A stretch of DNA of 64,000 nucleotides, from the NCBI GenBank assembly GCA_934167495.1, contig CAKPKP010000001.1, positions 133,407 to 197,406 on the forward strand, written 5' to 3'. The number at the start of each line of letters is the position of its first letter. Positions within the stretch are counted from its first letter, which is position 1. The position numbers and the translations under genes are program-made. The notes under the pieces were generated by a model. That model was given only the letters and a program-made list of their open reading frames with translations, had not been told where the DNA came from and did not search any database. This stretch comes from an uncultured Clostridia bacterium. GTDB lineage: Bacteria; Bacillota; Clostridia; TANB77; CAG-508. Below are positions 395 through 31,136 of this stretch, piece by piece.

Positions 395-706
395 ATGATA
401 AAAATATTAATAAATAAGTGCAATGATTTGTATAGAAAAAAAGAAAAATTAAACGATGTTTCGTATGATATTTTTGAAAATGAGGATTACTTAAACAAAA
501 CAATTCAGGATGATTCTAATTTGGAATTTAATAGTTTAATGAATTTGCTAGATTATGATGAGAGAATTATAGTAATTTTATATTACATAGAAGGGTATAA
601 AAGTAGAGAGATAGCTGAAATTTTAAAAATAAAACACAATACTGTAAGAAGTAAGTTGCATAGAGCAAAACTTAAATTAAGAGAATATGTGAAGGAGGAA
701 AAATAA
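395..706 (+). CDS. sigma-70 family protein retaining only region 4 (N-terminally truncated ECF-type sigma)
   Basis: C-terminus ERIIVILYYIEGYKSREIAEILKIKHNTVRSKLHRAKLKL is a classic sigma region 4 HTH; no region 2 anywhere upstream (terminator at 257-312). Confidence 0.5.
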   Translation: MIKILINKCNDLYRKKEKLNDVSYDIFENEDYLNKTIQDDSNLEFNSLMNLLDYDERIIVILYYIEGYKSREIAEILKIKHNTVRSKLHRAKLKLREYVKEEK

Positions 707-1848
707 TGAATAAAGTAGATAAAAAAATAAAATTGATTTTATCAAAAGAATTAGAAGTACCTAACAAATTTAGAGAAACCGTAAATTCGTGCATAGATAA
801 TTTGCCTGAACATAGAAGCAGAAAAGAGAAAAAATTTAATATTATAAAACTTATACAAATTGTTACAATTGGGATATTATCTATAGGTGTTACAGCATTT
901 GCACATAGTGAAATACAGAAAATTGAAAAAAGTAAAATTAATCAAAATGTTTCAGAAGTAAATGATGAAATAAAAGTAGACACTTATTATGACAGCAATG
1001 GAATAGAAATGCATCAATATAATTTTAAGTATCCTCTTGATACGAATGATTGGGAAAGCTCAAATTTATATGAGTATTTAAAGATAACTACAATGAAAGA
1101 ATATAATGAGTACAAGGAAAAATATGCTGATGTATTTGAACTTGAAAAAATGACAGAAGAAGATTTTGAAAATAATTACTTACTTGTTCTTATAATGGTG
1201 GAGAATTCTTATATATATGATGTAAGTAGTGATAATAATATTTTACATATAAATATTATAAGAAACTTTGAAAATGCAACAGAAGATATGGATAAAATAA
1301 TTGTAGTATCATTAAAAATATCACGAGAATTAGATATGGAAAAAATAGAAATGAATGAATTTCCAGAAGAAAATGAATATAAAGCAAAGCCTTATATCAA
1401 AGATTTAGTAAAAAATGATTATTCAAAAGAAAGTGCGATTAAAGATGGAGCTATTGTAACAGATTTTAATAAAACAGATTACAAAAGTTATATAATTTCA
1501 AACAATAAAGAAAAATTAGATGAATTTATAGAAAAAACTAAGAATGGGATTGAATCACAAATTAGGCTAATAGAATACCAAACAGGTTTCACAAGATTTT
1601 GTGATTTAAAATATGAAAATGGAATGTATAAAGCATATATTTATATAAAACCATTAGAAAATGAGAATTTTAAAACTTCTGTTAAAGCTAGTTATGAATT
1701 TATAAGAGGAAAAGAAATAAAAATTAATTATTCAGATGAGATAAAATCATACACATATTTTATTATAGAAAATACAAATTTACATTATGGAGATATAGAA
1801 TTGCCAATGACTGAAAATAGAATTATTTTTGAGTATAATATTGAATAA
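706..1848 (+). CDS. putative anti-sigma factor, single-pass membrane protein with large extracytoplasmic domain
   Basis: ATGA start/stop overlap with sigma gene; short cytoplasmic N-terminus, one TM (IIKLIQIVTIGILSIGVTAFA), ~300 aa outside. Confidence 0.45.
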   Translation: MNKVDKKIKLILSKELEVPNKFRETVNSCIDNLPEHRSRKEKKFNIIKLIQIVTIGILSIGVTAFAHSEIQKIEKSKINQNVSEVNDEIKVDTYYDSNGIEMHQYNFKYPLDTNDWESSNLYEYLKITTMKEYNEYKEKYADVFELEKMTEEDFENNYLLVLIMVENSYIYDVSSDNNILHINIIRNFENATEDMDKIIVVSLKISRELDMEKIEMNEFPEENEYKAKPYIKDLVKNDYSKESAIKDGAIVTDFNKTDYKSYIISNNKEKLDEFIEKTKNGIESQIRLIEYQTGFTRFCDLKYENGMYKAYIYIKPLENENFKTSVKASYEFIRGKEIKINYSDEIKSYTYFIIENTNLHYGDIELPMTENRIIFEYNIE

Positions 1849-1929: not shown

Positions 1930-2364
1930 TTACATATCGCAAGTATCTTCTTCAGAACGTGTTTCTCCACATGGTGGCTCGAAACAGTGTCCTAAATCAA
2001 TACCTTTTAAACATTTTCCTTCATGTTTACATTTTGTACATATTTTAACATGCTTTACGTCGTCTACCCAAACTTGAACTTCATATTTTTTATCAGGGCA
2101 AAGAGGTCCAAATACGAATTGACCATCTTTATCTGTAAAAGTATGAGAGACAGGCTTTCTTTCTTCTTTTCCAAATTCTCTACAAACTTCAATTAGTTTA
2201 ACTACAGCATCTTTTACAGGCTCTTTATAACAATTTCTTATAACTCCGTATATAACGTTACGGTTATCTTCTGGTAAAGTTATATCTAAGTCAAATTGCT
2301 TTCCACTAGCTATAACTCCATCAACATCAATCATATCTTTCTTTTCAAAATCCATTAAAATCAT
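1930..2364 (-). CDS. carboxypeptidase-regulatory-like (prealbumin fold) domain protein with Cys-rich C-terminal tail
   Basis: GVIRN..KEPVKDAVVKL...TFTDKDGQFVF..L.PDKKYEVQV pattern; C-terminal CTKCKHEGKC...HCFEPPCGE; only minus-strand gene in first 36 kb. Confidence 0.4.
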   Translation of the reverse strand: MILMDFEKKDMIDVDGVIASGKQFDLDITLPEDNRNVIYGVIRNCYKEPVKDAVVKLIEVCREFGKEERKPVSHTFTDKDGQFVFGPLCPDKKYEVQVWVDDVKHVKICTKCKHEGKCLKGIDLGHCFEPPCGETRSEEDTCDM

Positions 2365-2455: not shown

Positions 2456-2485
2456 TTGACTTTTAAAATATAAGAATGATATACT
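2456..2485 (+). promoter_or_regulatory. sigma-A type promoter candidate (TTGACT-18-TATACT)
   Basis: -35 ttgact at 2456, -10 tatact at 2480, upstream of 2566 gene. Confidence 0.35.
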
Positions 2486-2565: not shown

Positions 2566-4263
2566 ATGAAAAGCAAAGTAATGTTAAATAAAAAAATAGT
2601 TATATATATAATTATTTTTGTATCGACATTATTTATATTAGGATGTGGAAATACAGCCAATGCTGCGCATGTTAGTGAAAACATAGATGAAATTGATGAA
2701 ACAAAATATCCAGGGTATAAAGAAACAATAAATTCATTGAAATCACAACATCCAACATGGAATTTTAAGTTTTATTATACAGACTTAGATTGGGAAGAAG
2801 TTATTACTAACGAATATCAAGGTCATGGTAGATCACCAAAAAACTTATCACCAGCTAACAATATTTATTATGAAGGCGAATGGATATGTCCATATTGTAA
2901 AGATACAACATATGATAGTGGAAATTGGTATTGTGCTTCAGAAGCTGCAATAAAATATATGATGGATCCAAGAGGTTCAATAAATAGTTCAGATATATTT
3001 CAATTTCAAGATTTATCTTCTCCAAATGTAGTAAGAGAAAATGTTGCAAAAATGGTAGAAGGTACTTTTTTAGATGAAAAAAATTGTATAGATGCAATAG
3101 TAACTGTAAGTAAACAATATAATATAAATGGTTATTATCTTGTAGCAAGAATGTTGCAAGAACAAGGTAGAAACGGTTCGGTTTTAAGCCTAGGAAATGG
3201 ATATAATGGAAATTATGTTGGAGTATATAATTTATTTAATATTGGAGCATATGGAAGCGGAACAAGTAATGTTATAATGAATGGTTTAGAATATGCCGAT
3301 AAGCGTGGTTGGTATTCTAAAGCTGATTCAATAATTGGTGGAGCTGAAATTGTTGCAAAAGAATACATAGCGATAGGACAAAATACATTATATTTTCAAA
3401 AATTTAATGTTGTAACAAGTAACCTTTATAATCACCAATATATGCAAAATATATTAGCTGCTCAAAGAGAGGGTTCTACTTTGAGAACAACATATGAAGA
3501 AATAGATCCTGAACTTTCAAGCACATATACTTTTTTAATACCAATTTATGAAAATATGCCTGAGCAAGTTTCATTAAGACCTTCAACAGTTACAAATCTA
3601 ACAGAAGATGTTGAAGAAGCTATTGTTAATGCAATAGGCGGATTAAAAATAAAGGAGGCTCCAGGAGTTGCTTCAAGACAAATTTCAGCAGTTGAAGAAG
3701 GAGCAACGGTAAAAATTATATTAAGAGCTCAAGAAAAAGTAGATGGATATTATTGGGATAAGATATTAACTAAATCAGGTTATTATGGATATGCTGCAAG
3801 AGGAGCTGCAGATGGAAGTAAATTATATCTAGTTGTTGAAAAAGACAACAACAACAATAATGATAATAATAATGACAATAATAATGATGATGGCAAAACA
3901 GAGAAACCTGTGGAAAAAATTGAGCTAACAACTACAGAAATAAAATGTTCACCAGATGTATCACTAGATGCTATAAAAAATCAATATAAAAATGTAGAAT
4001 ATACGGCAGAAAAAATTGCTACAGGAGAAATTATAAAAATTGATGGTAAAGAGTATACAGTTGTAAAAAAAGGCGATTCAAATGGAGATGGAGAAGTAGA
4101 TATTTTAGATGTTGTAGTAGTTTTAAATTATTTAAAAGGAAAAACAAGTTTTGAAAAAGATTGTTTTATAGAAGCTAGTAAAGTAGCATCACAAGATGAA
4201 GAAATATCAATATTAGATGTTGTAAAATTATTAAATTATTTAAAAGGAAAAACTGAAATATAA
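2566..4263 (+). CDS. secreted GH73 mannosyl-glycoprotein endo-beta-N-acetylglucosaminidase with SH3b-like domain, Asn/Asp-rich linker and C-terminal type-I dockerin
   Basis: signal peptide; YYLVARMLQEQG...NTLYFQKFNV glucosaminidase signature; GDSNGDGEVDILDVVVVLNYLKGKT plus degenerate second repeat ISILDVVKLLNYLKGKT. Confidence 0.7.
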   Translation: MKSKVMLNKKIVIYIIIFVSTLFILGCGNTANAAHVSENIDEIDETKYPGYKETINSLKSQHPTWNFKFYYTDLDWEEVITNEYQGHGRSPKNLSPANNIYYEGEWICPYCKDTTYDSGNWYCASEAAIKYMMDPRGSINSSDIFQFQDLSSPNVVRENVAKMVEGTFLDEKNCIDAIVTVSKQYNINGYYLVARMLQEQGRNGSVLSLGNGYNGNYVGVYNLFNIGAYGSGTSNVIMNGLEYADKRGWYSKADSIIGGAEIVAKEYIAIGQNTLYFQKFNVVTSNLYNHQYMQNILAAQREGSTLRTTYEEIDPELSSTYTFLIPIYENMPEQVSLRPSTVTNLTEDVEEAIVNAIGGLKIKEAPGVASRQISAVEEGATVKIILRAQEKVDGYYWDKILTKSGYYGYAARGAADGSKLYLVVEKDNNNNNDNNNDNNNDDGKTEKPVEKIELTTTEIKCSPDVSLDAIKNQYKNVEYTAEKIATGEIIKIDGKEYTVVKKGDSNGDGEVDILDVVVVLNYLKGKTSFEKDCFIEASKVASQDEEISILDVVKLLNYLKGKTEI

Positions 4264-4285: not shown

Positions 4286-5260
4286 ATGAAAAGTAAAATA
4301 CTAAAAGCAAGTGTAATATTAACATTAATTATTACATTATGTGTTAATTTTAATTTCGTATTAGCAGTAGATGATAACACTACAGGTGATGGAAGTTCAT
4401 CAACAACTCCAGTAAGTACACCAGATAGTACACCTGTAAGCACACCAAAACCAACTGTAGAAAGTACGCCAGTTCCAACGGCAGAACCAACACCAACGCC
4501 AACGTCAAAGCCTACAGTTGAGCCAACGGCAGAACCAACAGAAGAACCAACTCCTACAGAAGAAGAGCCAACTGAAACTGATGCACCAACACCAACAGCA
4601 ACAGCAACTTCAAAACCTACTCAAACTCCAAAGCCAACATCAACAGCTACACCAACAGCTAAACCAGTAGAAGACACTCCAGAGCCAACTGCTACAGAAA
4701 ACCCTAACAAAACTACTAGTACAGGTAATGTTGTTTTAAATACTGTTGTTAAAAGTGTTACAACAAAAGAGGATTTTACAGGAAAAGGAGTATCATCAAT
4801 AAGTGTAAAAAGTATAAATTCTCAAGACGAAAAGAAAGATATTGAATTAACTCCCAAATTTGATGTTAATACATATAACTATAAATGTAGAGTAGATTTA
4901 GATGTTGAAAAAATAGAAATAGACATAGAACTTATTGATGAAAGCTGGTCTTCAGAAATTATTGGGAATGGAAAAATAGTTGAAGGTGAAAATATAATAA
5001 CTATAATATCAAGTAATGATGATAAAACAGAAAATGTTATATATCAAATAAACGTTACTAAAGCTAATGAGGTTACAAATAATGCTATTACTACTAAGGA
5101 AAATGAAAATGGAGAATCTAAAAGAAGTGCTAACAAAGATATTATTTTAATAGTATGTATAATAGTAATTATAGTATCAATATTAATCATAATTATTACA
5201 AAATATTTAAGTTATAAAAAAGAAAATAAATTTAGGAGGGAAGATAAAGATGAAATGTAA
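4286..5260 (+). CDS. surface protein: signal peptide, Pro/Thr-rich linker, cadherin-like beta-sandwich domain, C-terminal TM anchor
   Basis: PT repeats TPVSTPKPTVESTPVPTAEPTPTPT; NYKCRVDLDVEKIEIDIELID...GENIITIISSNDDKTENVIYQINV; C-terminal ILIVCIIVIIVSILIIIITKY + basic tail. ATG 4286 preferred over TTG 4268. Confidence 0.5.
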   Translation: MKSKILKASVILTLIITLCVNFNFVLAVDDNTTGDGSSSTTPVSTPDSTPVSTPKPTVESTPVPTAEPTPTPTSKPTVEPTAEPTEEPTPTEEEPTETDAPTPTATATSKPTQTPKPTSTATPTAKPVEDTPEPTATENPNKTTSTGNVVLNTVVKSVTTKEDFTGKGVSSISVKSINSQDEKKDIELTPKFDVNTYNYKCRVDLDVEKIEIDIELIDESWSSEIIGNGKIVEGENIITIISSNDDKTENVIYQINVTKANEVTNNAITTKENENGESKRSANKDIILIVCIIVIIVSILIIIITKYLSYKKENKFRREDKDEM

Positions 5261-6431
5261 AAAATGTGGAGAAGAAATAACAGAAGGAACATTATGCGAA
5301 AAATGTAAAAAATCAAAAAATACAAAAATTATAGAAATCTCTGTAATAGTTGTATTATTGCTTGCTGTGTTAGGAATTGTTGGATGGAAAGTATTAAGAG
5401 ATAGAAATACAGAACATAGTAACACAGGTGCAAACTTATATAATTATGGATACGCAGTAGAAGATAATAATTATATATTTTATGCAATACCAGATAAAAA
5501 CGCAGAATATATGGATATATATAGAATGAAAAAAGATGGTACTAACAATGAATTAATCTGTGACAAAGACTGGAATGTAGCTTCATTAAATTTAGTTGGA
5601 GATTGGTTATATTTCATAGGATATGAAAAAGAGAGCGATGAATCAACAAGTAGTGAAACTACAGTAGCTAAAATATACAAAATGAGAACTAACGGAAAAG
5701 ATATAAAAGAATTAACAAGTGATGTTACAACACAATCTTATCAAATTACAGTAATTAAAAATGAAATATATTATATTAATGATGAATATCAAATTTGTAA
5801 AATAAGCACAAATGGTGGAGAAAGCTCATTAGTTTCAGAAGATAAAAATGGATTTGTAACAATAGATAATGGCTGGATTTATTATGCAGATTATGATACA
5901 GATAATTATGTAATGAAAAAAATGAAATTAGATGGCTCAGAAAAAACAGAAATAACTGGAGAAGTAATGTATGATATAAATATAGTAAAAAATGATATAT
6001 ATTATGCTAACTCAGAAGGATTATTCTGTAAGGTTTCAGTAAACGGTGGAGAGGTTACTAAATTATCTGAAAATGCTGTATATAATTTAAATGTAAGCGA
6101 TAATTATGCTTATTATATGAGATATGAAAATCCAGATTCAGAAGATTATGTTGTAGGATTATATAGAGTTAAACTTGATGGAACAGGAGAAGAGAAAATA
6201 AAAACATTTAAAAATTATTCTTCTTTCTTAAATGTTGTGGGAGATTGGATTATGTATTCAGATAACGATGAGCAATATGGATATATGGCTATGGTAAAAA
6301 AAGACGGCTCAGAAGACAAAAATATATATACATTTGATTTTGGAACTATAGAAGATGATTCAACAACAACTGAACCAACTGAGACTCAAGAACCAACAGA
6401 AACACCAGTACCAGAAGAAGTAAATGAATAA
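5250..6431 (+). CDS. zinc-ribbon / TM / DUF5050-type beta-propeller repeat protein with acidic PT-rich tail
   Basis: MKCKKCGEEITEGTLCEKCKK, TM helix, then repeated IYY.N...C(K)(I/V)S.NGGE...L motifs; 11-nt overlap with upstream gene. Confidence 0.5.
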   Translation: MKCKKCGEEITEGTLCEKCKKSKNTKIIEISVIVVLLLAVLGIVGWKVLRDRNTEHSNTGANLYNYGYAVEDNNYIFYAIPDKNAEYMDIYRMKKDGTNNELICDKDWNVASLNLVGDWLYFIGYEKESDESTSSETTVAKIYKMRTNGKDIKELTSDVTTQSYQITVIKNEIYYINDEYQICKISTNGGESSLVSEDKNGFVTIDNGWIYYADYDTDNYVMKKMKLDGSEKTEITGEVMYDINIVKNDIYYANSEGLFCKVSVNGGEVTKLSENAVYNLNVSDNYAYYMRYENPDSEDYVVGLYRVKLDGTGEEKIKTFKNYSSFLNVVGDWIMYSDNDEQYGYMAMVKKDGSEDKNIYTFDFGTIEDDSTTTEPTETQEPTETPVPEEVNE

Positions 6432-6444
6432 AATAGATATAAGA

Positions 6445-6473
6445 AAACCGCTAAAATATTTAGCGGTTTTTTT
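6445..6473 (+). terminator. rho-independent terminator
   Basis: aaaaccgctaaaatatttagcggttttttt. Confidence 0.6.
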
Positions 6474-6481: not shown

Positions 6482-6557
6482 TGGTGCTCCCAGGCAGAAT
6501 CGAACTGCCGACCTACAGGTTACGAATCTGTTGCTCTACCAACTGAGCTATAGAAGC
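6482..6557 (-). tRNA. tRNA-Thr (anticodon CGT), CCA encoded
   Basis: reverse complement gives GCTTCTATAGCTCAGTTGGTAGAGCAACAGATTCGTAACCTGTAGGTCGGCAGTTCGATTCTGCCTGGGAGCACCA; cloverleaf parsed by hand, anticodon loop TTCGTAA. Confidence 0.8.
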
Positions 6558-17645: not shown

Positions 17646-19364
17646 ATGAAATTAGAAAAGAAAAGATATTCTTATATAATAATTGCGGTAATAAGTATTA
17701 TAATGTGTTTGGGATTTAAGGACTATGATATAACACTTGCAGATGATGGATTTGTTCATTATTTAAGAGTAATTGGAACTGTAGAGTCTTTAAATGAAGG
17801 AATAATTCCACCACTTATTAGTCAATATTTTGTAAATAATTTAGGATATGGTATAAATCTATTTTATAATCCAATTGTAACTTATATACCTACTTTTTTA
17901 AAGATGTTATTGCCATTTTCATATTCTTACATATTAAAATTCTTTACATGTTTAACAGTATTTTTATCTGGTATATTTATGTTTGAATTTTGCAGAAATA
18001 TTTTTAAAAATAATAATATAGCAATAATTTCAGCAGTTTTGTATATAACAGCACCATATAGATTAACAGATATTTATATAAGATTTGCAATGGGGGAATT
18101 TACAGCATTTGTTTTTATTCCAATTTTATTATTAGGACTATATAATTTATTTTACGAAAATACAGAAAAAAGTTATTATATAACAATAGGTGCAGTAGGA
18201 TTAATTCTTACACATACAATAACTTTATATTATATGTGTTTTTTTAGTATATTATTTGTAATATTAAATATAAAGAAATTAAAAAATATAAAAATAATAA
18301 AAAAAATACTAATAAACATAGCTTTTATTGTAACAATTAGTGCATTTTTCTTAGTTCCACTTTTAGAATGTAAAATGTTTGCTAATTATGCAATATTTGA
18401 TGAAAATATAATGCAAACTAATGCAGAATGGGTAAAAGGAAAAACTATTCCTTTATCAGAAATATTTTTAAACAATGCTAAAACAGACGAAGATTTAAAT
18501 GTGTTATTTAGAATAGGAACACCATGTTTAGTATTTATTTTAATAGGAGTACTAATTTTCAAAAAAATAGATAATAAATATAAAAAATATTATATAATAA
18601 ATATGGTATTTTCATTATTATGTATATTTATGGCAAGTGAATATTTTCCTTGGGACAAGCTTCCAAATATATTATGCAAAATACAGTATCCATGGAGAAT
18701 GATAGGTTTTTTAACAGTATTTTTATCTATAGTGTGTTCAATAAACTTTTGTACATTTTTAGATATTTGTACAGTTAATAAACCAAAGGCTAAAATGATA
18801 TTTTTATGTATAATGATATGTTTAATAACAGCAAGTGGCATTGTAGATATATTGCCATATTTACAAGGTATGAGTGATAAAGAAAACAATAACGATATAA
18901 AATATGAAGAGTATATATTAAGTAATTTATCTATAGAACCAATGCAAATAAATAGGGAATATCTTCCTACAAAAGCACTTATGAATTTAAACTACATATC
19001 AAATAGAGATGAAAATGTAAAAATCATGAATGGAAATGCTAATATTAAAAACACAAAAAAAGAAAATTTAAATTATAGTTTTGAATATTCAAATGCAGAG
19101 AAAGATACAATAGTTGAATTACCATATTTGTATTATCCATATTATAATGTTAAAATAAATAATGAAAAAGTAGATATTATTGAATCAAGTAATGGATTAA
19201 TATCGTTAAAATTAAATGGTGAAGGAACTGTTACTTTAAAATATAGTTTAACTATATTTTCAAAAATAGCATATATAATTTCAATAATAAGTTTAATAAT
19301 ATTTATAATATATGTTATAAAGAAAAAAGAAAATATAAAGCTTATAGAAGAAAGAGAAAATTAA
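17646..19364 (+). CDS. GT-C fold membrane glycosyltransferase-like protein (YfhO-like)
   Basis: ~13 TM; DDGFVHYLRV motif in first extracytoplasmic loop. Confidence 0.45.
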   Translation: MKLEKKRYSYIIIAVISIIMCLGFKDYDITLADDGFVHYLRVIGTVESLNEGIIPPLISQYFVNNLGYGINLFYNPIVTYIPTFLKMLLPFSYSYILKFFTCLTVFLSGIFMFEFCRNIFKNNNIAIISAVLYITAPYRLTDIYIRFAMGEFTAFVFIPILLLGLYNLFYENTEKSYYITIGAVGLILTHTITLYYMCFFSILFVILNIKKLKNIKIIKKILINIAFIVTISAFFLVPLLECKMFANYAIFDENIMQTNAEWVKGKTIPLSEIFLNNAKTDEDLNVLFRIGTPCLVFILIGVLIFKKIDNKYKKYYIINMVFSLLCIFMASEYFPWDKLPNILCKIQYPWRMIGFLTVFLSIVCSINFCTFLDICTVNKPKAKMIFLCIMICLITASGIVDILPYLQGMSDKENNNDIKYEEYILSNLSIEPMQINREYLPTKALMNLNYISNRDENVKIMNGNANIKNTKKENLNYSFEYSNAEKDTIVELPYLYYPYYNVKINNEKVDIIESSNGLISLKLNGEGTVTLKYSLTIFSKIAYIISIISLIIFIIYVIKKKENIKLIEEREN

Positions 19365-20800: not shown

Positions 20801-21697
20801 ATGATTGAAATTAAAGACCTAAATAAAACTTTTGCTAATCATAAAGTTTTAGAAAACTTAAATTGTAATATAAAAACAAATTCAATTTACGGTTTAATAG
20901 GTGCAAATGGTGCTGGAAAATCTACACTTTTAAGAATAATTAATGATATCTTTAGAAAAGATAGTGGTACAGTTTTAATAGATGGACAGGAAATTATGAA
21001 TAATGAAGAATTGAAACAAAAACTAGTTTTTATACCAGATGATTTGTATTTTATGCCAAATTATACTTTAAAAGATATGGCAATATTTTATGAAGCTATG
21101 TACAAAAATTTTGATATGAACTATTTACAAGAACTAGCAAAGATATTGAAGCTAGATTTAAAAACTAAAATTCAATCTTTTTCAAAAGGTATGAAAAGAC
21201 AGTGTGCATTAATATGTGCATTAGCAACAAATGCTGATTATATGTTTTTTGATGAAACTTTTGATGGATTGGACCCAGTAGTAAGAAACTTAATGAAAAA
21301 AATAATAGCAAAACAAATGACTAAAAAAGATACAACAATAATAATGACTAGTCACAATCTAAGAGAGCTAGAAGACATATGTGATAATTTAGGATTATTA
21401 TATAAAGGTGGAATACTATTTGAAAGTGATGTAGATACATTAAAAACTAATATGTTTAAAATACAAATATCATTAAAAGATGACTTTGACAAAAATTCAT
21501 TTGAAAAATTAAACATCTTAAGCTTCAAGAAAACAGGTAGTGTAGCTACAATAATTGTAAAAGGAGAAAAAGAGGAATATGAAAAATATTTAAACTCAAT
21601 GAATCCAATTATTTTAGACTTTTTACCATTAACATTAGAAGAAATATTTATCTATGAAATGGAGGTATTAGGTTATGAATTTAATCAAGTTATTTAA
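20801..21697 (+). CDS. ABC transporter ATP-binding protein
   Basis: GANGAGKST Walker A, signature and Walker B present. Confidence 0.8.
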   Translation: MIEIKDLNKTFANHKVLENLNCNIKTNSIYGLIGANGAGKSTLLRIINDIFRKDSGTVLIDGQEIMNNEELKQKLVFIPDDLYFMPNYTLKDMAIFYEAMYKNFDMNYLQELAKILKLDLKTKIQSFSKGMKRQCALICALATNADYMFFDETFDGLDPVVRNLMKKIIAKQMTKKDTTIIMTSHNLRELEDICDNLGLLYKGGILFESDVDTLKTNMFKIQISLKDDFDKNSFEKLNILSFKKTGSVATIIVKGEKEEYEKYLNSMNPIILDFLPLTLEEIFIYEMEVLGYEFNQVI

Positions 21698-23603
21698 TGT
21701 AAAATATTTAATGCAAAACATAAAAAAATCAAAAAATATAATAATATTATGTTTAACAATAATGCCAATATTAAGCGCTATATTACTTACAGTAATAGGA
21801 ACATCTAAAACCTATAGCAGTGTAGTGTCTAGTAAATTAACTATATTAAATATAATAGGAATGTATATAATTCCTGTTGCAATTTCAATGTGTTTATTTG
21901 GATATGTATTTAGAAGAAATAGTGTAGATTTCATAAATTCTATGCCATTAAGCAGAAAAACGATATTTGTAACTAATACAGTGGGTGGAATAATACTAAT
22001 AGCATTAACACAATTATTAGCATTAATATTAACATGGATAGTAAGCTTATTTTTCACTCAAATAATTATTTTTAATGGTTATTTAATAGATATATTTTTT
22101 ATAATGTTAGTGTCTTATATATTTGTTTTTACATCAGCTAACTTAGCAATGACTATATCTGGAAATTATTTAACTCAAATAGCAGTTACTTTATTAATAT
22201 TATTTTTAATACCTTTTTCAATAGATGCATTTAATGGGTTCTCAAGTTATAAAAATATAAAGTTAGAAAATACATCATACGAATTTTCAGGTCAAGTATC
22301 ATCAAGTTATGAATATACAGAACCATATAAAATACTTTCAAGTTTGATTGTTTCTTCAAGAAATGAAATATTTAATTTTAAAACAATGTGCAATATGCTT
22401 ATATTAACTATAGTGTATATAGCATTAGGAATGATATTGTTTGAAAAAAGAAAAATGGAAAATACAGAGGAATCTTTTGCAAATGTATATGTGCATTTAT
22501 TCGTAAAAATGTTAACATTAATACCATTCGTAGTCTTGATAAATTTTATTGATTCAACAACTACAGTGTTTATTTTCGAAGTGGCTTTAATTGCAATATA
22601 TTATTTTGTATATGACTTAGTAACAAAAAGAAAAGTTAAATTCTTATTATCAGTAGTAAGTTTTGCGGTTTCATTAGTAATTTTGTTATCAATTTGCAAA
22701 ATAGTAGGAGAAAAAGAAAAAAATTATATATTTGAACTAAAAAACATAGAAAAAATTTCTATAAACTTATCAGATTCTAATGCTATATATATTTCAGATA
22801 AGGATATAATTAATTATGTTTATAAAAATATAGAGAACAAAGCAACTTACGATTATGGTTACAGATATTATTCAAATAATCCAGTTAGTTCAGTAAACAT
22901 ATATCCTATAGAATGTAGTTTTAAAATGAAGGATGGAAATGAAGTAAAATTTACATTAAGATTAGAGAAATCTGCAAAAGAAGAGTTAAATAATAAATTA
23001 CTAAATTCAGAGGAATATAAAAAAGAAAAGAAAAGTAAATTTGAATTTCCTGATAATGCAGTATACTATTTTAGAGAAAATAGACTCAATGAAGATGAAA
23101 TTAAAATATTAAAAAGAGAAATAGAAAAATCATTAGATAATGTTGATGAATTAACAACATACTATTATAGTCAATATAATTTCTCAATATATGCATACAA
23201 AAATCATAATGTAATAGAAATAAATTTACCAATAACATTAACAGAAGATACATTTAAAGTTATAACAAAAAATGCTAATATGAAAGCATATGAGAGTGTT
23301 AAAAATAATAAAGTTATAAGTTGTGGATTAGCTAATTTGGGTGAATATGCGGATGATGAACCTATGTATTATGATGCGATTAGATATTGCACGGACGATT
23401 TTACAAAATTTATAGAGCAAAATTATAATGATGTTTGTGACATGAATTCAAAATATTATGTAATATACCTTTATTCTGATATTGGAAAAGGAGAAAGTTT
23501 CTTTACAAACAAGATAGAAGAAATAAATAAAATACTAGAAAATGCCATTTTAAACAATAAAGATGAATTTCAGTATTATTATGATACAGTAGAAGTTTAT
23601 TAA
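21675..23603 (+). CDS. ABC-2-type permease-like membrane protein with large C-terminal soluble domain
   Basis: 6+ TM N-terminal half, ~350 aa hydrophilic C-terminal half; overlaps ATPase gene end. Confidence 0.45.
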   Translation: MNLIKLFNVKYLMQNIKKSKNIIILCLTIMPILSAILLTVIGTSKTYSSVVSSKLTILNIIGMYIIPVAISMCLFGYVFRRNSVDFINSMPLSRKTIFVTNTVGGIILIALTQLLALILTWIVSLFFTQIIIFNGYLIDIFFIMLVSYIFVFTSANLAMTISGNYLTQIAVTLLILFLIPFSIDAFNGFSSYKNIKLENTSYEFSGQVSSSYEYTEPYKILSSLIVSSRNEIFNFKTMCNMLILTIVYIALGMILFEKRKMENTEESFANVYVHLFVKMLTLIPFVVLINFIDSTTTVFIFEVALIAIYYFVYDLVTKRKVKFLLSVVSFAVSLVILLSICKIVGEKEKNYIFELKNIEKISINLSDSNAIYISDKDIINYVYKNIENKATYDYGYRYYSNNPVSSVNIYPIECSFKMKDGNEVKFTLRLEKSAKEELNNKLLNSEEYKKEKKSKFEFPDNAVYYFRENRLNEDEIKILKREIEKSLDNVDELTTYYYSQYNFSIYAYKNHNVIEINLPITLTEDTFKVITKNANMKAYESVKNNKVISCGLANLGEYADDEPMYYDAIRYCTDDFTKFIEQNYNDVCDMNSKYYVIYLYSDIGKGESFFTNKIEEINKILENAILNNKDEFQYYYDTVEVY

Positions 23604-27900: not shown

Positions 27901-28100
27901 TATTATTTGGATATTTATTAAACTTTTACATATTACAGACATGTGAATTAAATTATGTTATGTTTTATAAATTTGTTAAACCAATAAGTTATGTATATGC
28001 AATTGCAATAACAATAATTTTTACTGAAATAGTTAATTTAGTTACATTCAAATTTTTGAAAAAAATAGATATGATAGAATCTTTAAAAAGTGTAGAGTAA
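24933..28100 (+). CDS. FtsX/MacB-family ABC permease (two FtsX 4-TM modules) with ~450 aa extracytoplasmic coiled-coil insert
   Basis: TAATG overlap with ATPase; long heptad region QIEEAENQIEENRQKLEDAENEI...; C-terminal FtsX domain. Confidence 0.7.
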   Translation: MKRALVKDSVKQIKNTFKRYISILLMALLGVGFFAGIKATSPDMQKTLDSYFDNQNVYDIQVVSTLGITKDDIEAVKNLDNIEEVLGVYSKDEIVKIGDEEKIIKIISYSQDTNALNKFDLTNGSLPENSDECIVEQYFLDFLNKSIGDYIEIEDEDNTLNNKKLKIVGVANSPLYISRDRGTSKLGSGKINYYLYVPDTNINSDIYTELYATVKGAKDVLCFSDEYDKLIEEAKSEVEGIKGQREKARYDEIIGTATKELNEAQEKFDNEKQEAESQIEEAENQIEENRQKLEDAENEIAYNRVKANKEFENAESQIEEAENQLVIAEEEFNSKKDLIFSKKEDAESTLATLNENLDNLEKNIEEMKKRADETEDEKLKVVIETQILLLETNKTNLEVSINVIQNTIDTLEKQFNDAEQKIIDGKNEIEAKKAELEETKESTYAELASATWKVNNGKQELQDAEETLAENKIEFEEKIKEAEIKLLDAKEKINDIENPKWYILDRTSNAGYKGYYDDTQSILNIGKVFPLVFFVVATLISLTSMTRMVEEQRVQIGTLKALGYNKLQIAMKYIIYSGSATLIGGFLGMCIGFPTLPRIVFIMYAMMYTLPDIIIEFNTYYATVGLSIASLCIVGATIYSCIRELNQEPAVLMRPKAPKAGKRVLLEKIPFIWSHLSFNGKVTVRNIFRYKKRFLMTIIGIAGCTALIVAGFGLRDSISSILPIQFGELSNYEFMANLKSSITLSDVENLQTDLLTNEKITDLTKAYFQSGKIYNDEKDQDVQIIVPEDKQKFKEFVKMRSTNRKEEYNIDNNTIILTQKAAKLLNIKEGDKITLENSDNSQVEVKVGKIIENYIYHYVYMSENLYKQLYGEFDYNVLYIKSIDLNEEDESNLAKEILNDYRVSAITTTSSLLNSMDETMECLNYVVWILIISAGLLAFVVLYNLSNVNISERIRELATIKVLGFYDKEVYDYVIRETILLTAIGIIIGLLFGYLLNFYILQTCELNYVMFYKFVKPISYVYAIAITIIFTEIVNLVTFKFLKKIDMIESLKSVE

Positions 28101-28231
28101 AAGCAGTGATATAAACACAGATTGATGAAAAAATAGTAATTTTTCTATTGAAACTGTAATATAATTGTGATACAATAATCATACTTGTAAAAAAGTATAT
28201 AAAAATAAATGTAGTTATATAGGAGGTACTT

Positions 28232-28924
28232 ATGATTTATTCAAAAGAATTAGAAGGAATGTGTACAGTAGCTAAAGGTGTAGACCATGGACCAGCACCA
28301 ATTCCAGAAGAAGGAAAATGGGTAAAAGCTAAAGAAATAAAAGATATTTCAGGATTAACACATGGTATTGGATGGTGTGCTCCACAACAAGGAGCTTGTA
28401 AATTAACTCTAAATGTAAAAGAGGGAATAATCCAAGAAGCTTTAGTAGAAACAGTAGGATGTTCAGGAATGACACATTCAGCAGCAATGGCTGGAGAAAT
28501 TTTAGTAGGAAAAACAATATTAGAAGCTCTTAATACAGACTTAGTTTGTGATGCTATTAATACAGCAATGAGAGAATTATTTTTACAAATAGTATATGGT
28601 AGAACTCAATCTGCATTTTCAGAAGGAGGACTTCCAGTAGGAGCAGGACTTGAAGACTTAGGAAAAGGACATAGAAGCCAAGTAGGAACAATATATTCAA
28701 GTAAATTAAAAGGACCTAGATACTTAGAACTTGCAGAAGGTTACATAGTAGAAATTGGTTTAGACAAAGATGATCAAATAATAGGATATAAATATGTTAA
28801 TTTAGGAAAAATGATGGAAAACATCAAAAAAGGAATAGAACCAACAGAAGCTATAGAAAAAGCTTCAGGAAAATATGGAAGATTTGATGAAGCTGTTAAG
28901 AAAATAGATCCTAGACAAGAATAA
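28232..28924 (+). CDS. NifU-N-like Cys-containing protein, partner of GGGtGRT protein
   Basis: GWCAPQQGACKL and VGCSGMTHSAAMAGE cysteine motifs; strong RBS; biased codon usage. Confidence 0.45.
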   Translation: MIYSKELEGMCTVAKGVDHGPAPIPEEGKWVKAKEIKDISGLTHGIGWCAPQQGACKLTLNVKEGIIQEALVETVGCSGMTHSAAMAGEILVGKTILEALNTDLVCDAINTAMRELFLQIVYGRTQSAFSEGGLPVGAGLEDLGKGHRSQVGTIYSSKLKGPRYLELAEGYIVEIGLDKDDQIIGYKYVNLGKMMENIKKGIEPTEAIEKASGKYGRFDEAVKKIDPRQE

Positions 28925-28965
28925 TGTAAAAATAGTTATAATATAAAAAATGAGGAGGAATAAAG

Positions 28966-29967
28966 ATGGCAGTAACATTTGAAAGTTATGAAAGAAGAAT
29001 AGAACAAATTAAGCCAGTAATGGAAAAATACGGAATAAAAGATTTTGAAGATGCTTTAGAAATATGTAAAAATAAAGGATTTAATCCATATGAAATAGTA
29101 AAAGGAGTACAACCAATATGCTTTGAAAATGCAGCTTGGGCATATACATTAGGAGCTGCAATAGCTATAAAAAAAGGATGTACAAAAGCTGCAGACGCAG
29201 CAAAAGCAATAGGTGAAGGATTACAAGCTTTTTGTATTCCAGGATCAGTTGCAGATGATAGAAAAGTTGGATTAGGACATGGAAACTTAGCATCAATGTT
29301 ATTATCAGAAGAAACAAAATGTTTTGCTTTCTTAGCAGGACATGAAAGCTTTGCAGCAGCTGAAGGTGCTATCGGAATAGCAAGATCAGCTAATAAAGTA
29401 AGAAAAGAACCATTAAGAGTTATATTAAATGGTTTAGGAAAAGATGCTGCACAAATAATATCAAGAATAAATGGATTTACATATGTAAAAACAGATTTTG
29501 ACTTTTTCACTGGAAAAGTAAAAGTAGTAGAAGAAATTGCTTATTCAGATGGAGAAAGAAGTAAAGTTAGATGTTATGGTGCTAATGATGTTAGAGAAGG
29601 TGTAGCTATAATGCATTTAGAAGGCGTAGATGTATCTATTACAGGAAATTCTACAAACCCAACAAGATTCCAACATCCAGTAGCAGGAACATACAAAAAA
29701 GAATGTATAGAACAAGGAAAGAAATATTTCTCAGTTGCATCAGGTGGTGGAACAGGAAGAACATTACATCCAGATAACATGGCAGCAGGACCTGCTTCAT
29801 ATGGTATGACAGATACAATGGGAAGAATGCATTCAGATGCACAATTTGCAGGATCATCATCAGTTCCAGCTCACGTTGAAATGATGGGATTAATAGGAAT
29901 GGGTAACAACCCAATGGTTGGAGCTACAGTTGCAGTTGCAGTTGCATGCGAAGAAGCAATGAAATAA
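28966..29967 (+). CDS. GGGtGRT family protein (uncharacterised)
   Basis: literal SGGGTGRTLHPDNM motif; GAGGAGG RBS. Confidence 0.6.
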   Translation: MAVTFESYERRIEQIKPVMEKYGIKDFEDALEICKNKGFNPYEIVKGVQPICFENAAWAYTLGAAIAIKKGCTKAADAAKAIGEGLQAFCIPGSVADDRKVGLGHGNLASMLLSEETKCFAFLAGHESFAAAEGAIGIARSANKVRKEPLRVILNGLGKDAAQIISRINGFTYVKTDFDFFTGKVKVVEEIAYSDGERSKVRCYGANDVREGVAIMHLEGVDVSITGNSTNPTRFQHPVAGTYKKECIEQGKKYFSVASGGGTGRTLHPDNMAAGPASYGMTDTMGRMHSDAQFAGSSSVPAHVEMMGLIGMGNNPMVGATVAVAVACEEAMK

Positions 29968-29993
29968 TTAATTGTAAAACAAAATAGAAGTAA

Positions 29994-30026
29994 AAACAGA
30001 TATTTTTATAAATATCTGTTTTTTTG
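29994..30026 (+). terminator. rho-independent terminator
   Basis: aaaacagatattt-ttat-aaatatctgttttttt. Confidence 0.6.
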
Positions 30027-30088
30027 TCTAATAGGAAATTTCTCTGAAATTCCTATTAGACAAATACTTTGTACAGAAATTTTGTCCT
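30026..30088 (+). repeat. dispersed intergenic repeat, copy 3 (truncated after H2 start)
   Basis: gtctaataggaaatttctctgaaattcctattagac + aaatactttgtacagaaattt. Confidence 0.5.
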
Positions 30089-30095
30089 AAAAGTA

Positions 30096-30124
30096 TTGAC
30101 ATTACTAGAAATAATACATATAAT
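30096..30124 (+). promoter_or_regulatory. consensus sigma-A promoter TTGACA-17-TATAAT for sigH
   Basis: exact consensus hexamers with 17-nt spacer. Confidence 0.55.
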
Positions 30125-30163
30125 AGCCCTAGAATACAACATAGGAGGTATCTTTAGGTTATT

Positions 30164-30808: not shown

Positions 30809-30857
30809 AAAACGTGGATAGTAAAAAAATAAATATTACTATCCACAAATAAATTAT

Positions 30858-30933
30858 GCTTTCATAGCTCAGTCGGTAGAGCACTACCTTGGTAAGGTAG
30901 AGGTCGCGGGTTCGATTCCCGCTGTAAGCTCCA
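30858..30933 (+). tRNA. tRNA-Thr (anticodon GGT), CCA encoded
   Basis: GCTTTCATAGCTCAGTCGGTAGAGCACTACCTTGGTAAGGTAGAGGTCGCGGGTTCGATTCCCGCTGTAAGCTCCA; one U-U mismatch in acceptor stem. Confidence 0.75.
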
Positions 30934-30937
30934 ATTC

Positions 30938-31004
30938 ATGTCAATGGGGACGGAGATTTTTGACACAAAAACAAACTGTCAAAAACCTCCGTCCCCATTG
31001 ACAT
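30938..31004. repeat. 67-bp GC-cored palindromic element, copy P1
   Basis: atgtcaatggggacggagatttttgaca-caaaaacaaac-tgtcaaaaacctccgtccccattgacat. Confidence 0.7.
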
Positions 31005-31023
31005 ATTATTTAACATTAAACAG

Positions 31024-31052: not shown

Positions 31053-31136
31053 GTGCAGGTAGAGTTTTATTCTGTACAACAAAAGAATAATGTAGTGGAA
31101 AATATTAGTAAAATTTAAAAGGAGATGCTTATTATT

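What the first reader, a model, noticed from the sequence alone, without database searches (positions are those of the whole stretch)
2566..4263. Peptidoglycan glucosaminidase (GH73) carrying a type-I dockerin
The C-terminus has a canonical calcium-binding dockerin repeat (GDSNGDGEVDILDVVVVLNYLKGKT) plus a degenerate second repeat (ISILDVVKLLNYLKGKT). The rest of the protein is a cell-wall hydrolase (GH73 plus SH3b-like) rather than a carbohydrate-active enzyme of a cellulosome. This implies a cohesin-bearing partner, a non-cellulosomal cohesin-dockerin anchoring system for an autolysin. No cohesin is obvious in this window.
Basis: partly seen in the sequence, partly recalled or inferred. Interest (0 to 1): 0.55.

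Follow-up and report, generated by a model that had tools for sequence, protein, structure and literature searches.

The report
Cell-wall hydrolase carrying a weak dockerin
A secreted cell-wall-cutting enzyme of an uncultured human-gut Clostridium really does end in a dockerin, the small plug that normally clips enzymes onto a cohesin socket on the cell surface. This combination is common in gut Clostridia and has been noted before, this copy is partly degenerate, and no socket gene lies in this stretch of DNA.

Summary
ORF 2566-4263 encodes a 565-aa secreted protein made of a GH73 N-acetylglucosaminidase (catalytic Glu199), an SH3b domain, an N/D-rich linker, a small beta domain and a C-terminal type I dockerin. 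Repeat 1 of the dockerin is canonical. Repeat 2 keeps its helix but has lost the Ca ligands at loop positions 1 and 3. The window's copy scores just below Pfam thresholds (Dockerin_1 20.1 vs 22.9 bits), but 65 of 66 aligned homologs hit Dockerin_1 and the AlphaFold model superposes on solved dockerins (rmsd 1.6-1.7 A).

The protein belongs to a family of more than 1,700 clusters in uncultured gut Clostridia. In relatives (L006, L007, L014, L084), GH73-dockerin genes sit beside a sortase gene and a ~350-aa cohesin protein ending in LPKTG, so a non-cellulosomal cohesin-dockerin tether for autolysins is real at family level.

In this organism no cohesin was found in the 64-kb window or 7.4 kb upstream, and the rest of the genome could not be reached. 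The conserved downstream partner is instead a membrane-anchored cadherin-like protein on a Pro/Thr stalk.

Dockerin-bearing cell-wall hydrolases are already in the literature, including a GH73 in Ruminococcus bicirculans, so this is a new member of a known kind.

The parts
2456..2485 (+). Promoter-like site (TTGACT, 18-nt spacer, TG-extended TATACT) about 80 nt upstream of the start codon.
   Evidence: This is a consensus match only; the number of promoter-like sites in the region is not above the shuffled expectation.
2566..4263 (+). Whole gene: secreted GH73-SH3b-dockerin protein, 565 aa.
2566..2664 (+). Signal peptide (residues 1-33). The likely signal peptidase I site is ANA|A. A weak lipobox-like ILGC at Cys27 is not conserved as a lipobox in homologs.
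   Evidence: The AF2 model has a helix at residues 2-26. The cleavage site was read by eye from the sequence and is an inference.
2698..3570 (+). GH73 N-acetylglucosaminidase domain with the N-terminal extension typical of Atl/SagB-type enzymes (about residues 45-335).
3160..3162 (+). Codon of the catalytic Glu199 (motif MLQEQG).
   Evidence: It aligns with AtlE Glu138, the single position that differs between 4pi7 and 4pi8. It is invariant in 66 homologs.
3607..3837 (+). SH3b-type cell-wall-binding domain (about residues 348-424).
   Evidence: Pfam SH3_3 gives 21.9 bits, below the cutoff. 42 of 66 homologs hit SH3_3. Foldseek matches lysostaphin, ALE-1 and endolysin SH3b domains.
3841..3912 (+). 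Disordered Asn/Asp-rich linker (residues 426-449).
   Evidence: pLDDT is below 50.
3913..4068 (+). Small alpha/beta module directly before the dockerin (residues 450-501), conserved in type A family members. Its function is unknown.
   Evidence: pLDDT is about 87-92. It is conserved in the family consensus.
4069..4263 (+). Type I dockerin (residues 502-565).
4075..4146 (+). Dockerin repeat 1: canonical Ca loop DSNGDGEVDILD plus helix VVVVLNYLKGKT (residues 504-527).
   Evidence: D504, D508 and D515 are invariant in the family.
4183..4254 (+). Dockerin repeat 2: degenerate loop VASQDEEISILD (ligand positions 1 and 3 lost) plus helix VVKLLNYLKGKT (residues 540-563). The ILD-plus-helix stretch matches repeat 1 at 13 of 15 residues.
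   Evidence: D551 (loop position 12) is invariant in the family.
4286..5260 (+). Conserved downstream gene (324 aa from the ATG at 4286; the ORF opens at TTG 4268). It encodes a signal peptide, a Pro/Thr-rich stalk of about 130 aa, one cadherin-like beta-sandwich domain and a C-terminal transmembrane anchor. It has no cohesin.
   Evidence: Pfam Cadherin-like gives 17.8 bits, below the cutoff. Local jackhmmer links it to downstream genes in 16 further fetched loci. Homologs score up to 78.6 bits on PF12733.
5250..6431 (+). Third gene of the probable operon, overlapping the end of the previous gene: zinc-ribbon, TM segment and DUF5050 beta-propeller protein (393 aa).
   Evidence: Pfam DUF5050, E 4.5e-45. 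It is present in all strains looked up and follows the GH73-dockerin gene in L024.
6444..6470 (.). Palindromic terminator-like hairpin after the DUF5050 gene. No + strand terminator-like site lies between the three genes.

Best explanation
The gene encodes a secreted peptidoglycan endo-beta-N-acetylglucosaminidase (GH73, Atl/SagB type, general acid Glu199) of an uncultured low-GC Clostridium from the human gut. Two targeting modules follow the catalytic domain. The SH3b domain binds the cell wall. The C-terminal type I dockerin most likely plugs, with Ca2+, into a cohesin displayed on the producer's own surface, holding the autolysin at the wall rather than letting it diffuse away.

The partner is seen directly in related genomes. 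It is a ~350-aa protein with one cohesin domain and an LPKTG sorting signal, encoded next to its sortase and next to GH73-dockerin genes. A second, probable cohesin sits on a membrane-anchored stalk of cadherin-like domains.

In this lineage the dockerin keeps one intact Ca loop and two nearly identical helices (the putative binding faces) but has lost the second Ca site. The cohesin gene, if it exists, lies elsewhere in the genome.

The hydrolase is probably co-transcribed with a membrane-anchored cadherin-like protein on a Pro/Thr stalk and a DUF5050 propeller protein. The stalk protein accompanies the GH73 gene whether or not a dockerin is present.

Shown here: the domain identities, the catalytic residue, the family-wide dockerin, and the cohesin/sortase linkage in relatives. 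Inferred: cohesin binding in this organism, self-directed (autolytic) function, and the operon structure.
For: GH73 identity and Glu199. Dockerin: 65 of 66 homologs hit PF00404; AF2 gives three helices with block-mean pLDDT of about 79-94; the model superposes on 4uyp_B and 5nrm_B at 1.6-1.7 A.

Within each protein the two dockerin helices are near-identical, while they differ strongly between proteins. This is the pattern expected of a dual-face binding module that co-evolves with a partner. In the window the ILD-plus-helix stretch matches at 13 of 15 residues between the two repeats.

Cohesin partner in relatives: L014 encodes GH73-Doc, then an SH3/cadherin-like/TM protein, then a cohesin protein (PF00963, 28.8 bits, above the 24.1 cutoff) ending in LPKTG, then a sortase (87 bits), then a second GH73-Doc. 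The same layout occurs in L006 and L007. L084 has cohesin, sortase, GH73-SH3-Big2-Doc and a cadherin-like protein in that order. The cohesin family has 649 hits; 36 of 40 members pass Pfam Cohesin at E<=1e-3, and 115 of the 120 listed members carry LPKTG or LPQTG.

Housekeeping context: the gene lies in conserved synteny with femAB, alr, DUF1189 and ftsH, even in relatives whose GH73 carries ricin-type lectin repeats and SH3 domains instead of a dockerin. This points to a resident autolysin whose targeting modules have been swapped. No phage record matches beyond the catalytic domain.
Against: No cohesin was found in the 64-kb window or in the 7.4 kb upstream. The window's dockerin is below Pfam's gathering score, and its second Ca loop lacks the ligands at positions 1 and 3.

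Its closest full-length relative, P0003, shows the same degeneration, and it too has no cohesin within 10 kb.

Of the type A loci with flanking sequence, only L006, L007 and L014 have a cohesin nearby; L081, L082 and L083 do not. Pfam's cohesin model is only marginally sensitive to this cohesin family (L084's cohesin scores 21.2 bits), so divergent cohesins could be missed. No binding or activity data exist.
Confidence: 0.55

Rival explanations
1. Orphan or repurposed dockerin. This lineage has no cognate cohesin. The one-calcium dockerin either survives as a structural or Ca-binding tail, or it binds a non-cohesin partner. The most obvious candidate is the co-encoded membrane-anchored cadherin-like stalk protein, which would tether the glucosaminidase near the membrane, loosely as SpdC partners SagB.
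For: No cohesin was found in about 71 kb. The second Ca loop is degenerate both here and in P0003. In exactly these two lineages the downstream protein has lost the N-terminal globular domain that other type A partners have. The cadherin-like/TM gene directly follows the GH73 gene in 17 loci. The gap to the next start codon is only 4-22 nt, and no terminator-like site separates the genes.
Against: The cadherin-like/TM gene also follows GH73 genes that have no dockerin at all (L026-L030, L034-L036, L054), so the pairing does not depend on the dockerin. The two dockerin helices remain nearly identical, which suggests that a symmetric binding surface is still maintained. About 30% of family members (37 of 121) have only one strict Ca loop, so loop loss is a common and tolerated state rather than a sign of decay. 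No interaction test was possible.
Confidence: 0.25
2. Surface-mounted weapon ('lyticome'). The cohesin-docked glucosaminidase attacks the walls of competing bacteria in the gut rather than remodelling the producer's own wall, as proposed for dockerin-bearing lysozymes of ruminococcal cellulosomes.
For: There is literature precedent: lysozyme activity of the R. champanellensis cellulosome and dockerin-linked lysozyme modules in rumen metagenomes, interpreted as competition tools (PMC6403190; PMC6487960). Dockerin sequences diversify quickly between species.
Against: The gene has a conserved position among core cell-envelope genes (femAB, alr, ftsH) across genera. Its closest solved relatives are housekeeping autolysins (Atl, SagB, AtlE, Acp). 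No immunity or toxin-type neighbours were seen. This rival shares the docking mechanism with the best explanation and differs only in the target.
Confidence: 0.15
3. Prophage endolysin or other mobile-element lysin that happens to carry a Ca-binding repeat.
For: GH73 and SH3b are common endolysin modules. Seven unannotated records labelled 'Bacteriophage sp.' from human faeces match the catalytic domain at 31-39% identity.
Against: The protein has an N-terminal signal peptide. No phage genes lie in the flanking sequence. No phage record covers 80% or more of the protein, and none matches the dockerin part. The chromosomal synteny is stable across strains and genera.
Confidence: 0.03

Closest known systems
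Ruminococcus bicirculans GH73 enzyme associated with that genome's single dockerin and single cohesin (Wegmann et al. 2014, as cited by Ze et al. 2015, PMC4611034)
   Same: A non-cellulolytic gut Firmicute in which a GH73 peptidoglycan hydrolase is the protein linked to cohesin-dockerin modules.
   Different: I could not read the primary paper, so the exact architecture is unknown to me. It is a different family (Ruminococcaceae), and I found no report of biochemical characterisation. The present family has separate cohesin-LPKTG/sortase genes and two GH73-dockerin paralog types.
Dockerin-bearing lysozymes of ruminococcal cellulosomes (R. champanellensis GH25, Morais et al. 2016; rumen metagenome dockerin-lysozyme modules, PMC6487960) and the 'lyticome' proposal (PMC6403190)
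   Same: A cell-wall glycosidase fused to a type I dockerin that docks onto scaffoldin cohesins.
   Different: Those enzymes are GH25 muramidases that are guests in a plant-fibre-degrading cellulosome. Here the enzyme is a GH73 glucosaminidase with SH3b. In relatives the cohesin proteins are monovalent and seem dedicated to the hydrolases, and no cellulosomal enzymes were seen nearby.
ScaE-type anchoring scaffoldins of Ruminococcus (single cohesin, LPXTG, sortase-attached to peptidoglycan; PMC13463774)
   Same: The ~350-aa cohesin-LPKTG proteins next to a sortase in L006, L007, L014 and L084 have the same logic: one cohesin covalently fixed to the wall to receive a dockerin.
   Different: None was found in this window. 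In the relatives the proposed ligand is an autolysin rather than a scaffoldin. The sequences are divergent, sitting at or just around Pfam's cohesin threshold (21-33 bits).
Staphylococcal Atl, SagB and AtlE and Clostridium perfringens Acp GH73 autolysins
   Same: Same catalytic fold, the same catalytic Glu and conserved Tyr (HQY), and the same N-terminal extension. Acp also uses SH3b-type wall-binding repeats (own knowledge).
   Different: Those enzymes use GW, SH3 or LysM repeats or a TM anchor for targeting, never a dockerin. Sequence identity is about 21-24% in the structural alignments.
SagB-SpdC peptidoglycan-release complex of S. aureus (PDB 6u0o)
   Same: A GH73 glucosaminidase that works with a dedicated membrane protein. 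Here a membrane-anchored protein is encoded immediately downstream of the GH73 gene in many genomes.
   Different: SpdC is a polytopic CAAX-like membrane protein and SagB is itself membrane-anchored (own knowledge). The partner here is single-pass with an extracellular cadherin-like domain. No interaction has been shown.
Clostridium perfringens non-cellulosomal cohesin-dockerin pairs (NagJ cohesin, PDB 2jh2, 2ozn, 2o4e)
   Same: Cohesin-dockerin pairing used outside plant-fibre degradation by a low-GC Clostridium. The relatives' cohesin profile weakly hits the NagJ cohesin (E 0.026-0.035).
   Different: Those pairs link secreted glycoside-hydrolase toxins to one another (own knowledge). They do not link an autolysin to the cell wall.

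Membership tests
GH73 (Atl/SagB-type endo-beta-N-acetylglucosaminidase) | Significant sequence similarity to characterised GH73 catalytic domains | tested here: met
   NCBIfam SagB E 2.6e-23. PDB chains of SagB, Atl, AtlE and Acp at E 1e-15 to 1e-10.
GH73 (Atl/SagB-type endo-beta-N-acetylglucosaminidase) | Catalytic general-acid Glu conserved | tested here: met
   Glu199 aligns with AtlE Glu138, identified by the wild type versus E138A sequence difference. It is invariant in 66 homologs, and Tyr292 of the HQY motif is also invariant.
GH73 (Atl/SagB-type endo-beta-N-acetylglucosaminidase) | Lysozyme-like alpha/beta fold of GH73 | tested here: met
   Foldseek against 6fxo, 6u0o, 4pia, 8yxn and 5wqw gives E 2.5e-11 to 1.4e-8 and target TM-scores of 0.63-0.75.
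GH73 (Atl/SagB-type endo-beta-N-acetylglucosaminidase) | Pfam Glucosaminidase (PF01832) above the gathering score | tested here: not met
   No hit at E<=1. Only 1 of 66 family members hits at E<=1e-3. The Pfam model is insensitive to this subfamily; the other tests override it.
GH73 (Atl/SagB-type endo-beta-N-acetylglucosaminidase) | Hydrolysis of the GlcNAc-beta-1,4-MurNAc bond | not testable with these tools
   This needs a zymogram or muropeptide analysis.
Type I dockerin (Pfam PF00404) | Profile score above the curated threshold | tested here: not met
   20.1 bits against a cutoff of 22.9, E 7.7e-4. Homologs: 65 of 66 hit at E<=1e-3, best 3.8e-20.
Type I dockerin (Pfam PF00404) | Two tandem segments of about 22 residues, each an EF-hand-like Ca loop (ligands at positions 1, 3, 5, 9, 12) followed by a helix | tested here: inconclusive
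   Segment 1 is fully canonical (DSNGDGEVDILD). Segment 2 keeps positions 5, 9 and 12 and the helix but has Val at position 1 and Ser at position 3. Of 121 sequences, 80 have two strict loops, 37 have one and 4 have none.
Type I dockerin (Pfam PF00404) | Three-helix dockerin fold | tested here: met
   AF2 helices at 513-523, 532-538 and 549-559 with block-mean pLDDT of about 79-94. 4uyp_B: rmsd 1.6 A, target TM-score 0.74. 5nrm_B: rmsd 1.7 A, target TM-score 0.81. Both at 32% identity.
Type I dockerin (Pfam PF00404) | Ca-dependent binding to a cognate cohesin | not testable with these tools
   No complex prediction or binding assay was available.
Cohesin-dockerin surface-anchoring system (ScaE-like) | A cohesin-bearing protein encoded in the same genome | tested here: inconclusive
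   None in the 64-kb window (Pfam on 26 ORFs; cohesin-family HMM on all six-frame ORFs) or in the 7.4 kb upstream. The rest of the 201-kb contig and of the genome could not be reached.
Cohesin-dockerin surface-anchoring system (ScaE-like) | Cohesin protein with a cell-surface anchor (LPXTG plus sortase, or TM) genetically linked to the dockerin protein | tested here: not met
   Not met in the window. Met in relatives L006, L007, L014 and L084.
SH3b cell-wall-binding domain (PF08239) | Profile score above threshold, or SH3b fold | tested here: met
   The profile score is below the cutoff (21.9 vs 27 bits). The fold matches lysostaphin, ALE-1 and endolysin SH3b domains, and 42 of 66 homologs hit SH3_3.
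Phage endolysin | Located in a prophage or lysis cassette, with no signal peptide, and with homologous full-length phage proteins | tested here: not met
   The context is chromosomal housekeeping genes. A signal peptide is present. Phage matches cover only the catalytic domain.
SagB-SpdC-type hydrolase-membrane partner complex | Partner is a polytopic CAAX-protease-like membrane protein | tested here: not met
   The downstream protein is single-pass with an extracellular cadherin-like domain. This is an analogy only.

The most novel reading that the evidence does not exclude
Uncultured gut Clostridia possess a dedicated, widespread 'autolysin docking' system distinct from cellulosomes. A sortase-attached monovalent cohesin and a membrane-stalk cohesin position two paralogous GH73 glucosaminidases at defined depths of the cell envelope. 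In the lineage of this window the system has been rewired: the dockerin has become a one-calcium module that no longer uses a cohesin and instead works with the co-transcribed cadherin-like membrane protein on its Pro/Thr stalk.
Probability: 0.12. Interest if true: 0.6.

Novelty: new member of a known kind. Interest (0 to 1): 0.35.

Why it matters
Autolysins must be kept at the right place in the wall, and known targeting devices are wall-binding repeats (LysM, SH3b, GW, choline-binding) or membrane partners. A protein-protein plug and socket, with the socket covalently fixed to peptidoglycan, would be a further and programmable way to position a hydrolase.

The data here show that this arrangement is not a curiosity of one Ruminococcus. 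It is a large family (more than 1,700 GH73-dockerin clusters and about 650 cohesin-LPKTG clusters) in uncultured gut Clostridia of humans, rabbits and mice. It offers natural, small, orthogonal cohesin-dockerin pairs and a tractable test of what non-cellulosomal dockerins do.

For this particular window the value is modest. It holds a somewhat degenerate member, without its socket in view.

Tried and rejected
1. The adjacent downstream gene as the cohesin. The window's 324/330-aa protein has only a Pro/Thr linker, a cadherin-like domain and a TM segment. The longer type A versions have an N-terminal beta domain, which I tested three ways. No Pfam cohesin hit was recorded in any of the 120 listed homologs. 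hhalign against the cohesin profile aligned only 33 columns. AF2 plus Foldseek gave generic Ig-like matches (SbsB/SbsC S-layer, macroglobulin domains) and no cohesin in the top 50. Rejected.

2. A cohesin elsewhere in the window. Pfam on 26 ORFs and a family-specific cohesin HMM on all six-frame ORFs of at least 50 aa found nothing.

3. The window's sortases as remnants of the cohesin operon. The intact sortase (38098-38706) is unrelated to the cohesin-operon sortase. The frameshifted one (36850-37493, minus strand) is of the same class but only 26-32% identical, and it has no cohesin neighbour. Not informative.

4. Reaching the rest of the genome. The species is absent from the representative genomes scanned (best hit 47-50% identity). 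The source contig (L087, 201 kb) can be read only within +/-10 kb of window-encoded proteins.

5. Prophage endolysin. Rejected.

6. DNA-level identity of the two dockerin helices as evidence of recent gene conversion. In a genome of about 26% GC, codon choice is too restricted for this to be decisive.

7. An AFDB fold search for catalogued full-length architectures. The library was unavailable.

8. Source annotations. None of the looked-up family proteins carries a name, except for one 'SH3 domain-containing protein'.
Full report
**What is there**

The window is low-GC DNA (about 23-36% GC in 2-kb windows). It is 100% identical, over the 14.3 kb that overlaps it, to locus L087, taken from a 201-kb contig of a Hadza/Nepal human-gut metagenome. 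The exact protein is carried on at least 23 metagenome contigs. The best match among one-genome-per-species representatives is only 47-50% identical, and those top matches are uncultured Clostridia or Bacillota MAGs from gut samples.

ORF 2566-4263 (+) encodes 565 aa. An AlphaFold2 model built on 66 homologs is confident (mean pLDDT 83). It resolves the following parts:
- an N-terminal signal helix;
- a catalytic domain, residues ~45-335;
- a beta-rich SH3-type domain, ~348-424;
- a disordered Asn/Asp linker, 426-449;
- a small alpha/beta module, 450-501;
- a three-helix C-terminal module, 502-565.

**Catalytic domain**

The Pfam Glucosaminidase model does not hit. Other evidence is clear:
- NCBIfam's SagB model matches residues 116-316 (E 2.6e-23).
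- phmmer finds the solved GH73 enzymes SagB, Atl, AtlE and C. perfringens Acp (E 1e-15 to 1e-10).
- Foldseek of the model returns the same structures first (E 2.5e-11 to 1.4e-8, target TM-score 0.63-0.75).

The PDB holds AtlE both as wild type and as the catalytic mutant E138A. The one differing residue aligns with Glu199 of the window protein. Glu199 and Tyr292 (HQY motif) are invariant in the family alignment. The SH3 domain is below Pfam's cutoff (21.9 vs 27 bits) but matches lysostaphin, ALE-1 and endolysin SH3b domains structurally.

**Dockerin**

On the window sequence alone the case is marginal. Dockerin_1 scores 20.1 bits against a gathering score of 22.9, and solved dockerins match at E 0.09-0.9. 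The family settles it:
- The protein has more than 1,700 homologs, mostly ~575 aa.
- 65 of 66 aligned members hit Dockerin_1, with a best E of 3.8e-20.
- Most show two textbook DxNxDGxxxxxD loops, each followed by a helix.
- The modelled module superposes on the A. cellulolyticus ScaB and Cel5 dockerins at 1.6-1.7 A with 32% identity.

Within a protein the two helices are nearly identical, while between proteins they vary widely. This is what is expected of a symmetric binding module that co-evolves with a partner.

The window's copy has a canonical first loop (DSNGDGEVDILD). Its second loop (VASQDEEISILD) has lost the ligands at positions 1 and 3, but the ILD-plus-helix stretch that follows matches repeat 1 at 13 of 15 residues. 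Loss of one strict loop is common: of 121 sequences, 80 have two strict loops, 37 have one and 4 have none. The closest full-length relative, P0003 (54% identity), shares the degeneration.

**Is there a cohesin?**

In relatives, yes. In rabbit-gut MAG locus L014 the homologous GH73-SH3-dockerin gene is followed, in order, by:
- a membrane-anchored SH3/cadherin-like protein;
- a 345-aa protein with a Pfam cohesin domain above threshold (28.8 bits) ending in LPKTG;
- a sortase;
- a second, longer GH73-SH3-Big_2-dockerin gene.

L006 and L007 have the same layout. In L084 the order is cohesin-LPKTG, sortase, GH73-SH3-Big2-dockerin, cadherin-like protein. The N-terminal domain of that last protein is itself cohesin-like (hhalign probability 91%, E 1e-6 over 93 columns).

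The cohesin-LPKTG protein is a family of 649 hits. Of 40 members, 36 pass Pfam Cohesin at E<=1e-3, and 115 of the 120 listed members carry LPKTG or LPQTG. In the cohesin region the family profile's only PDB matches are cohesins, all weak (E 0.03-0.5), including the non-cellulosomal NagJ cohesin of C. perfringens.

Two arrangements therefore recur:
- Type A: a ~575-aa GH73-SH3-dockerin gene plus a downstream cadherin-like/TM protein. The window's gene is of this type.
- Type B: cohesin-LPKTG, sortase, a ~750-aa GH73-SH3-Big2-dockerin gene, and a cohesin/cadherin-like/TM protein.

In this window, no cohesin was found. Pfam scans of 26 ORFs, covering every secreted, membrane or unknown protein, gave none. 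An HMM of the relatives' cohesin family found nothing in any six-frame ORF of at least 50 aa, even at E<=10. The 7.4 kb upstream of the window holds trigger factor, clpP, clpX, miaB and mutS only. Type A loci L081, L082 and L083 also lack a cohesin within 10 kb, so in many genomes the partner, if present, is unlinked.

**The neighbour that is conserved**

The gene 4-22 nt downstream (4268/4286-5260) encodes a signal peptide, a Pro/Thr stalk of about 130 aa, one cadherin-like beta-sandwich domain and a C-terminal TM anchor. A gene of this kind directly follows the GH73 gene in 17 loci. These include relatives whose GH73 carries ricin-type lectin repeats and two SH3 domains instead of a dockerin (L028-L030, L034, L036). 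The pairing is therefore linked to the hydrolase, not to the dockerin.

I tested whether the longer type A versions hide a cohesin at their N-terminus, and they do not. The domain folds confidently as a generic Ig-like sandwich with no cohesin among the top 50 structural matches. The window's version and its close relatives (P0361, P0365, P0380) lack that domain altogether.

A DUF5050 propeller gene overlaps the end of the stalk-protein gene. The only convincing terminator-like hairpin follows it (6444-6470), and a promoter-like site lies at 2456-2485, so a three-gene operon is likely.

Downstream synteny (ftsY, femAB, alr, DUF1189, ftsH, spoIIIAE) is stable between strains, and the femAB-to-ftsH block is also conserved across genera. 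No phage record matches beyond the catalytic domain. This points to a resident autolysin rather than a mobile lysin.

**Most likely mechanism**

The protein is a secreted glucosaminidase that is kept at the producer's surface by two devices. SH3b binds peptidoglycan. The dockerin binds a surface-anchored cohesin, either sortase-linked to the wall or on a membrane stalk, as encoded next to the gene in relatives.

The domain identities and the genetic linkage in relatives are shown. Cohesin binding in this organism, the self-directed role and the operon are inferred (confidence about 0.55). Three rivals remain:
- an orphan or rewired one-calcium dockerin, possibly working with the stalk protein (0.25);
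- a surface-mounted anti-competitor 'lyticome' enzyme (0.15);
- a phage lysin (0.03).

**Comparison with what is known**

The concept is not new. Ze et al. [quoted passage not shown] Dockerin-linked lysozyme modules were reported from rumen metagenomes (PMC6487960). Lysozyme activity was reported for the R. champanellensis cellulosome, and on that basis a review proposed the term 'lyticome' (PMC6403190). Sortase-anchored single-cohesin ScaE scaffoldins are the standard ruminococcal anchor (PMC13463774).

I found no functional study of a GH73-dockerin. I also found no description of the cohesin-LPKTG, sortase and GH73-dockerin gene cluster, or of its breadth in uncultured gut Clostridia. That breadth is the most interesting by-product of this check. 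The window's own gene is a somewhat degenerate member of that family, seen without its partner.

**Verdict**

Novelty: a new member of a known kind. Interest: 0.35.

Noticed in passing
window 36850-37493 (-): A sortase gene split by a 1-nt frameshift near 36990. Frame 0 ends ...IIVTDLNR*, and the +1 frame continues GDSYTYYIYKIYEV...LTLVTCNNYNKKRIIVKAKT, which contains the catalytic TLVTC motif. It is either a pseudogene or an assembly error. It belongs to the same class as the sortase of the relatives' cohesin operon, at 26-32% identity.
   Followed up: partly
window 36308-36751 (+), 37565-38095 (+), 38098-38706 (+): An intact sortase (202 aa, Pfam 77 bits) is preceded by a 176-aa secreted helical protein ending in LTYTG, a TM segment and KRNK. 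Nearby is a 147-aa Thr/Asn-rich secreted protein ending in LPYAG and a TM segment. These are small putative sortase substrates with atypical sorting motifs, and neither is a cohesin.
   Followed up: partly
window 59549-60928 (+): A second secreted cell-wall hydrolase: a GH25 muramidase (E 1e-44) with three LysM repeats. This organism therefore also uses conventional wall-binding repeats for another autolysin.
   Followed up: no
window 395-1848 (+); L086, L087, L088 upstream regions: The sigma-factor ORF upstream (103 aa) holds only region 4, whereas other strains have a 173-aa ECF-type sigma factor at this position. The sigma/anti-sigma-like block between mutS and the hydrolase gene differs in content between strains that carry the identical hydrolase, so it is a strain-variable spot.
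   Followed up: no
window 1930-2364 (-): A Cys-rich 144-aa protein with weak transthyretin/CarboxypepD_reg-like beta-sandwich hits and no signal peptide. It is divergently transcribed from the hydrolase gene and is present in every strain looked up.
   Followed up: no
P0362-P0364, P0367, P0375, P0376, P0382, P0396 and others (representative library); L019 1838-8866: Giant proteins of 2,000-7,000 aa built from up to 35 cadherin-like repeats end in a dockerin that matches the HMM of this family's dockerin (E 1e-15 to 1e-8). Dockerins in these gut Clostridia therefore also decorate very large surface proteins, not only hydrolases.
   Followed up: partly
L090 (P0002): The closest catalytic-domain relative (67% identity over GH73 + SH3) carries a different tail: a Big_2 domain plus a canonical two-loop dockerin. 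It has different neighbours and no cadherin-like gene within the about 0.9 kb of contig that follows it. This shows rapid shuffling of the C-terminal targeting modules.
   Followed up: partly
window 28000-34000: GC content rises to 0.32-0.36 against a background of about 0.25. The stretch contains a tRNA-Thr(GGT) gene at 30858-30933. A second tRNA-Thr (CGT) lies at 6482-6557 on the minus strand, just after the hydrolase operon's terminator-like hairpin.
   Followed up: no
window 50171-52342 (+), 17646-19364 (+), 21675-23603 (+): Three sizeable ORFs (723, 572 and 642 aa) with no Pfam family at E<=0.01 (first ORF) or E<=1e-3 (the other two). The last two have N-terminal sequences that look membrane-spanning.
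   Followed up: no
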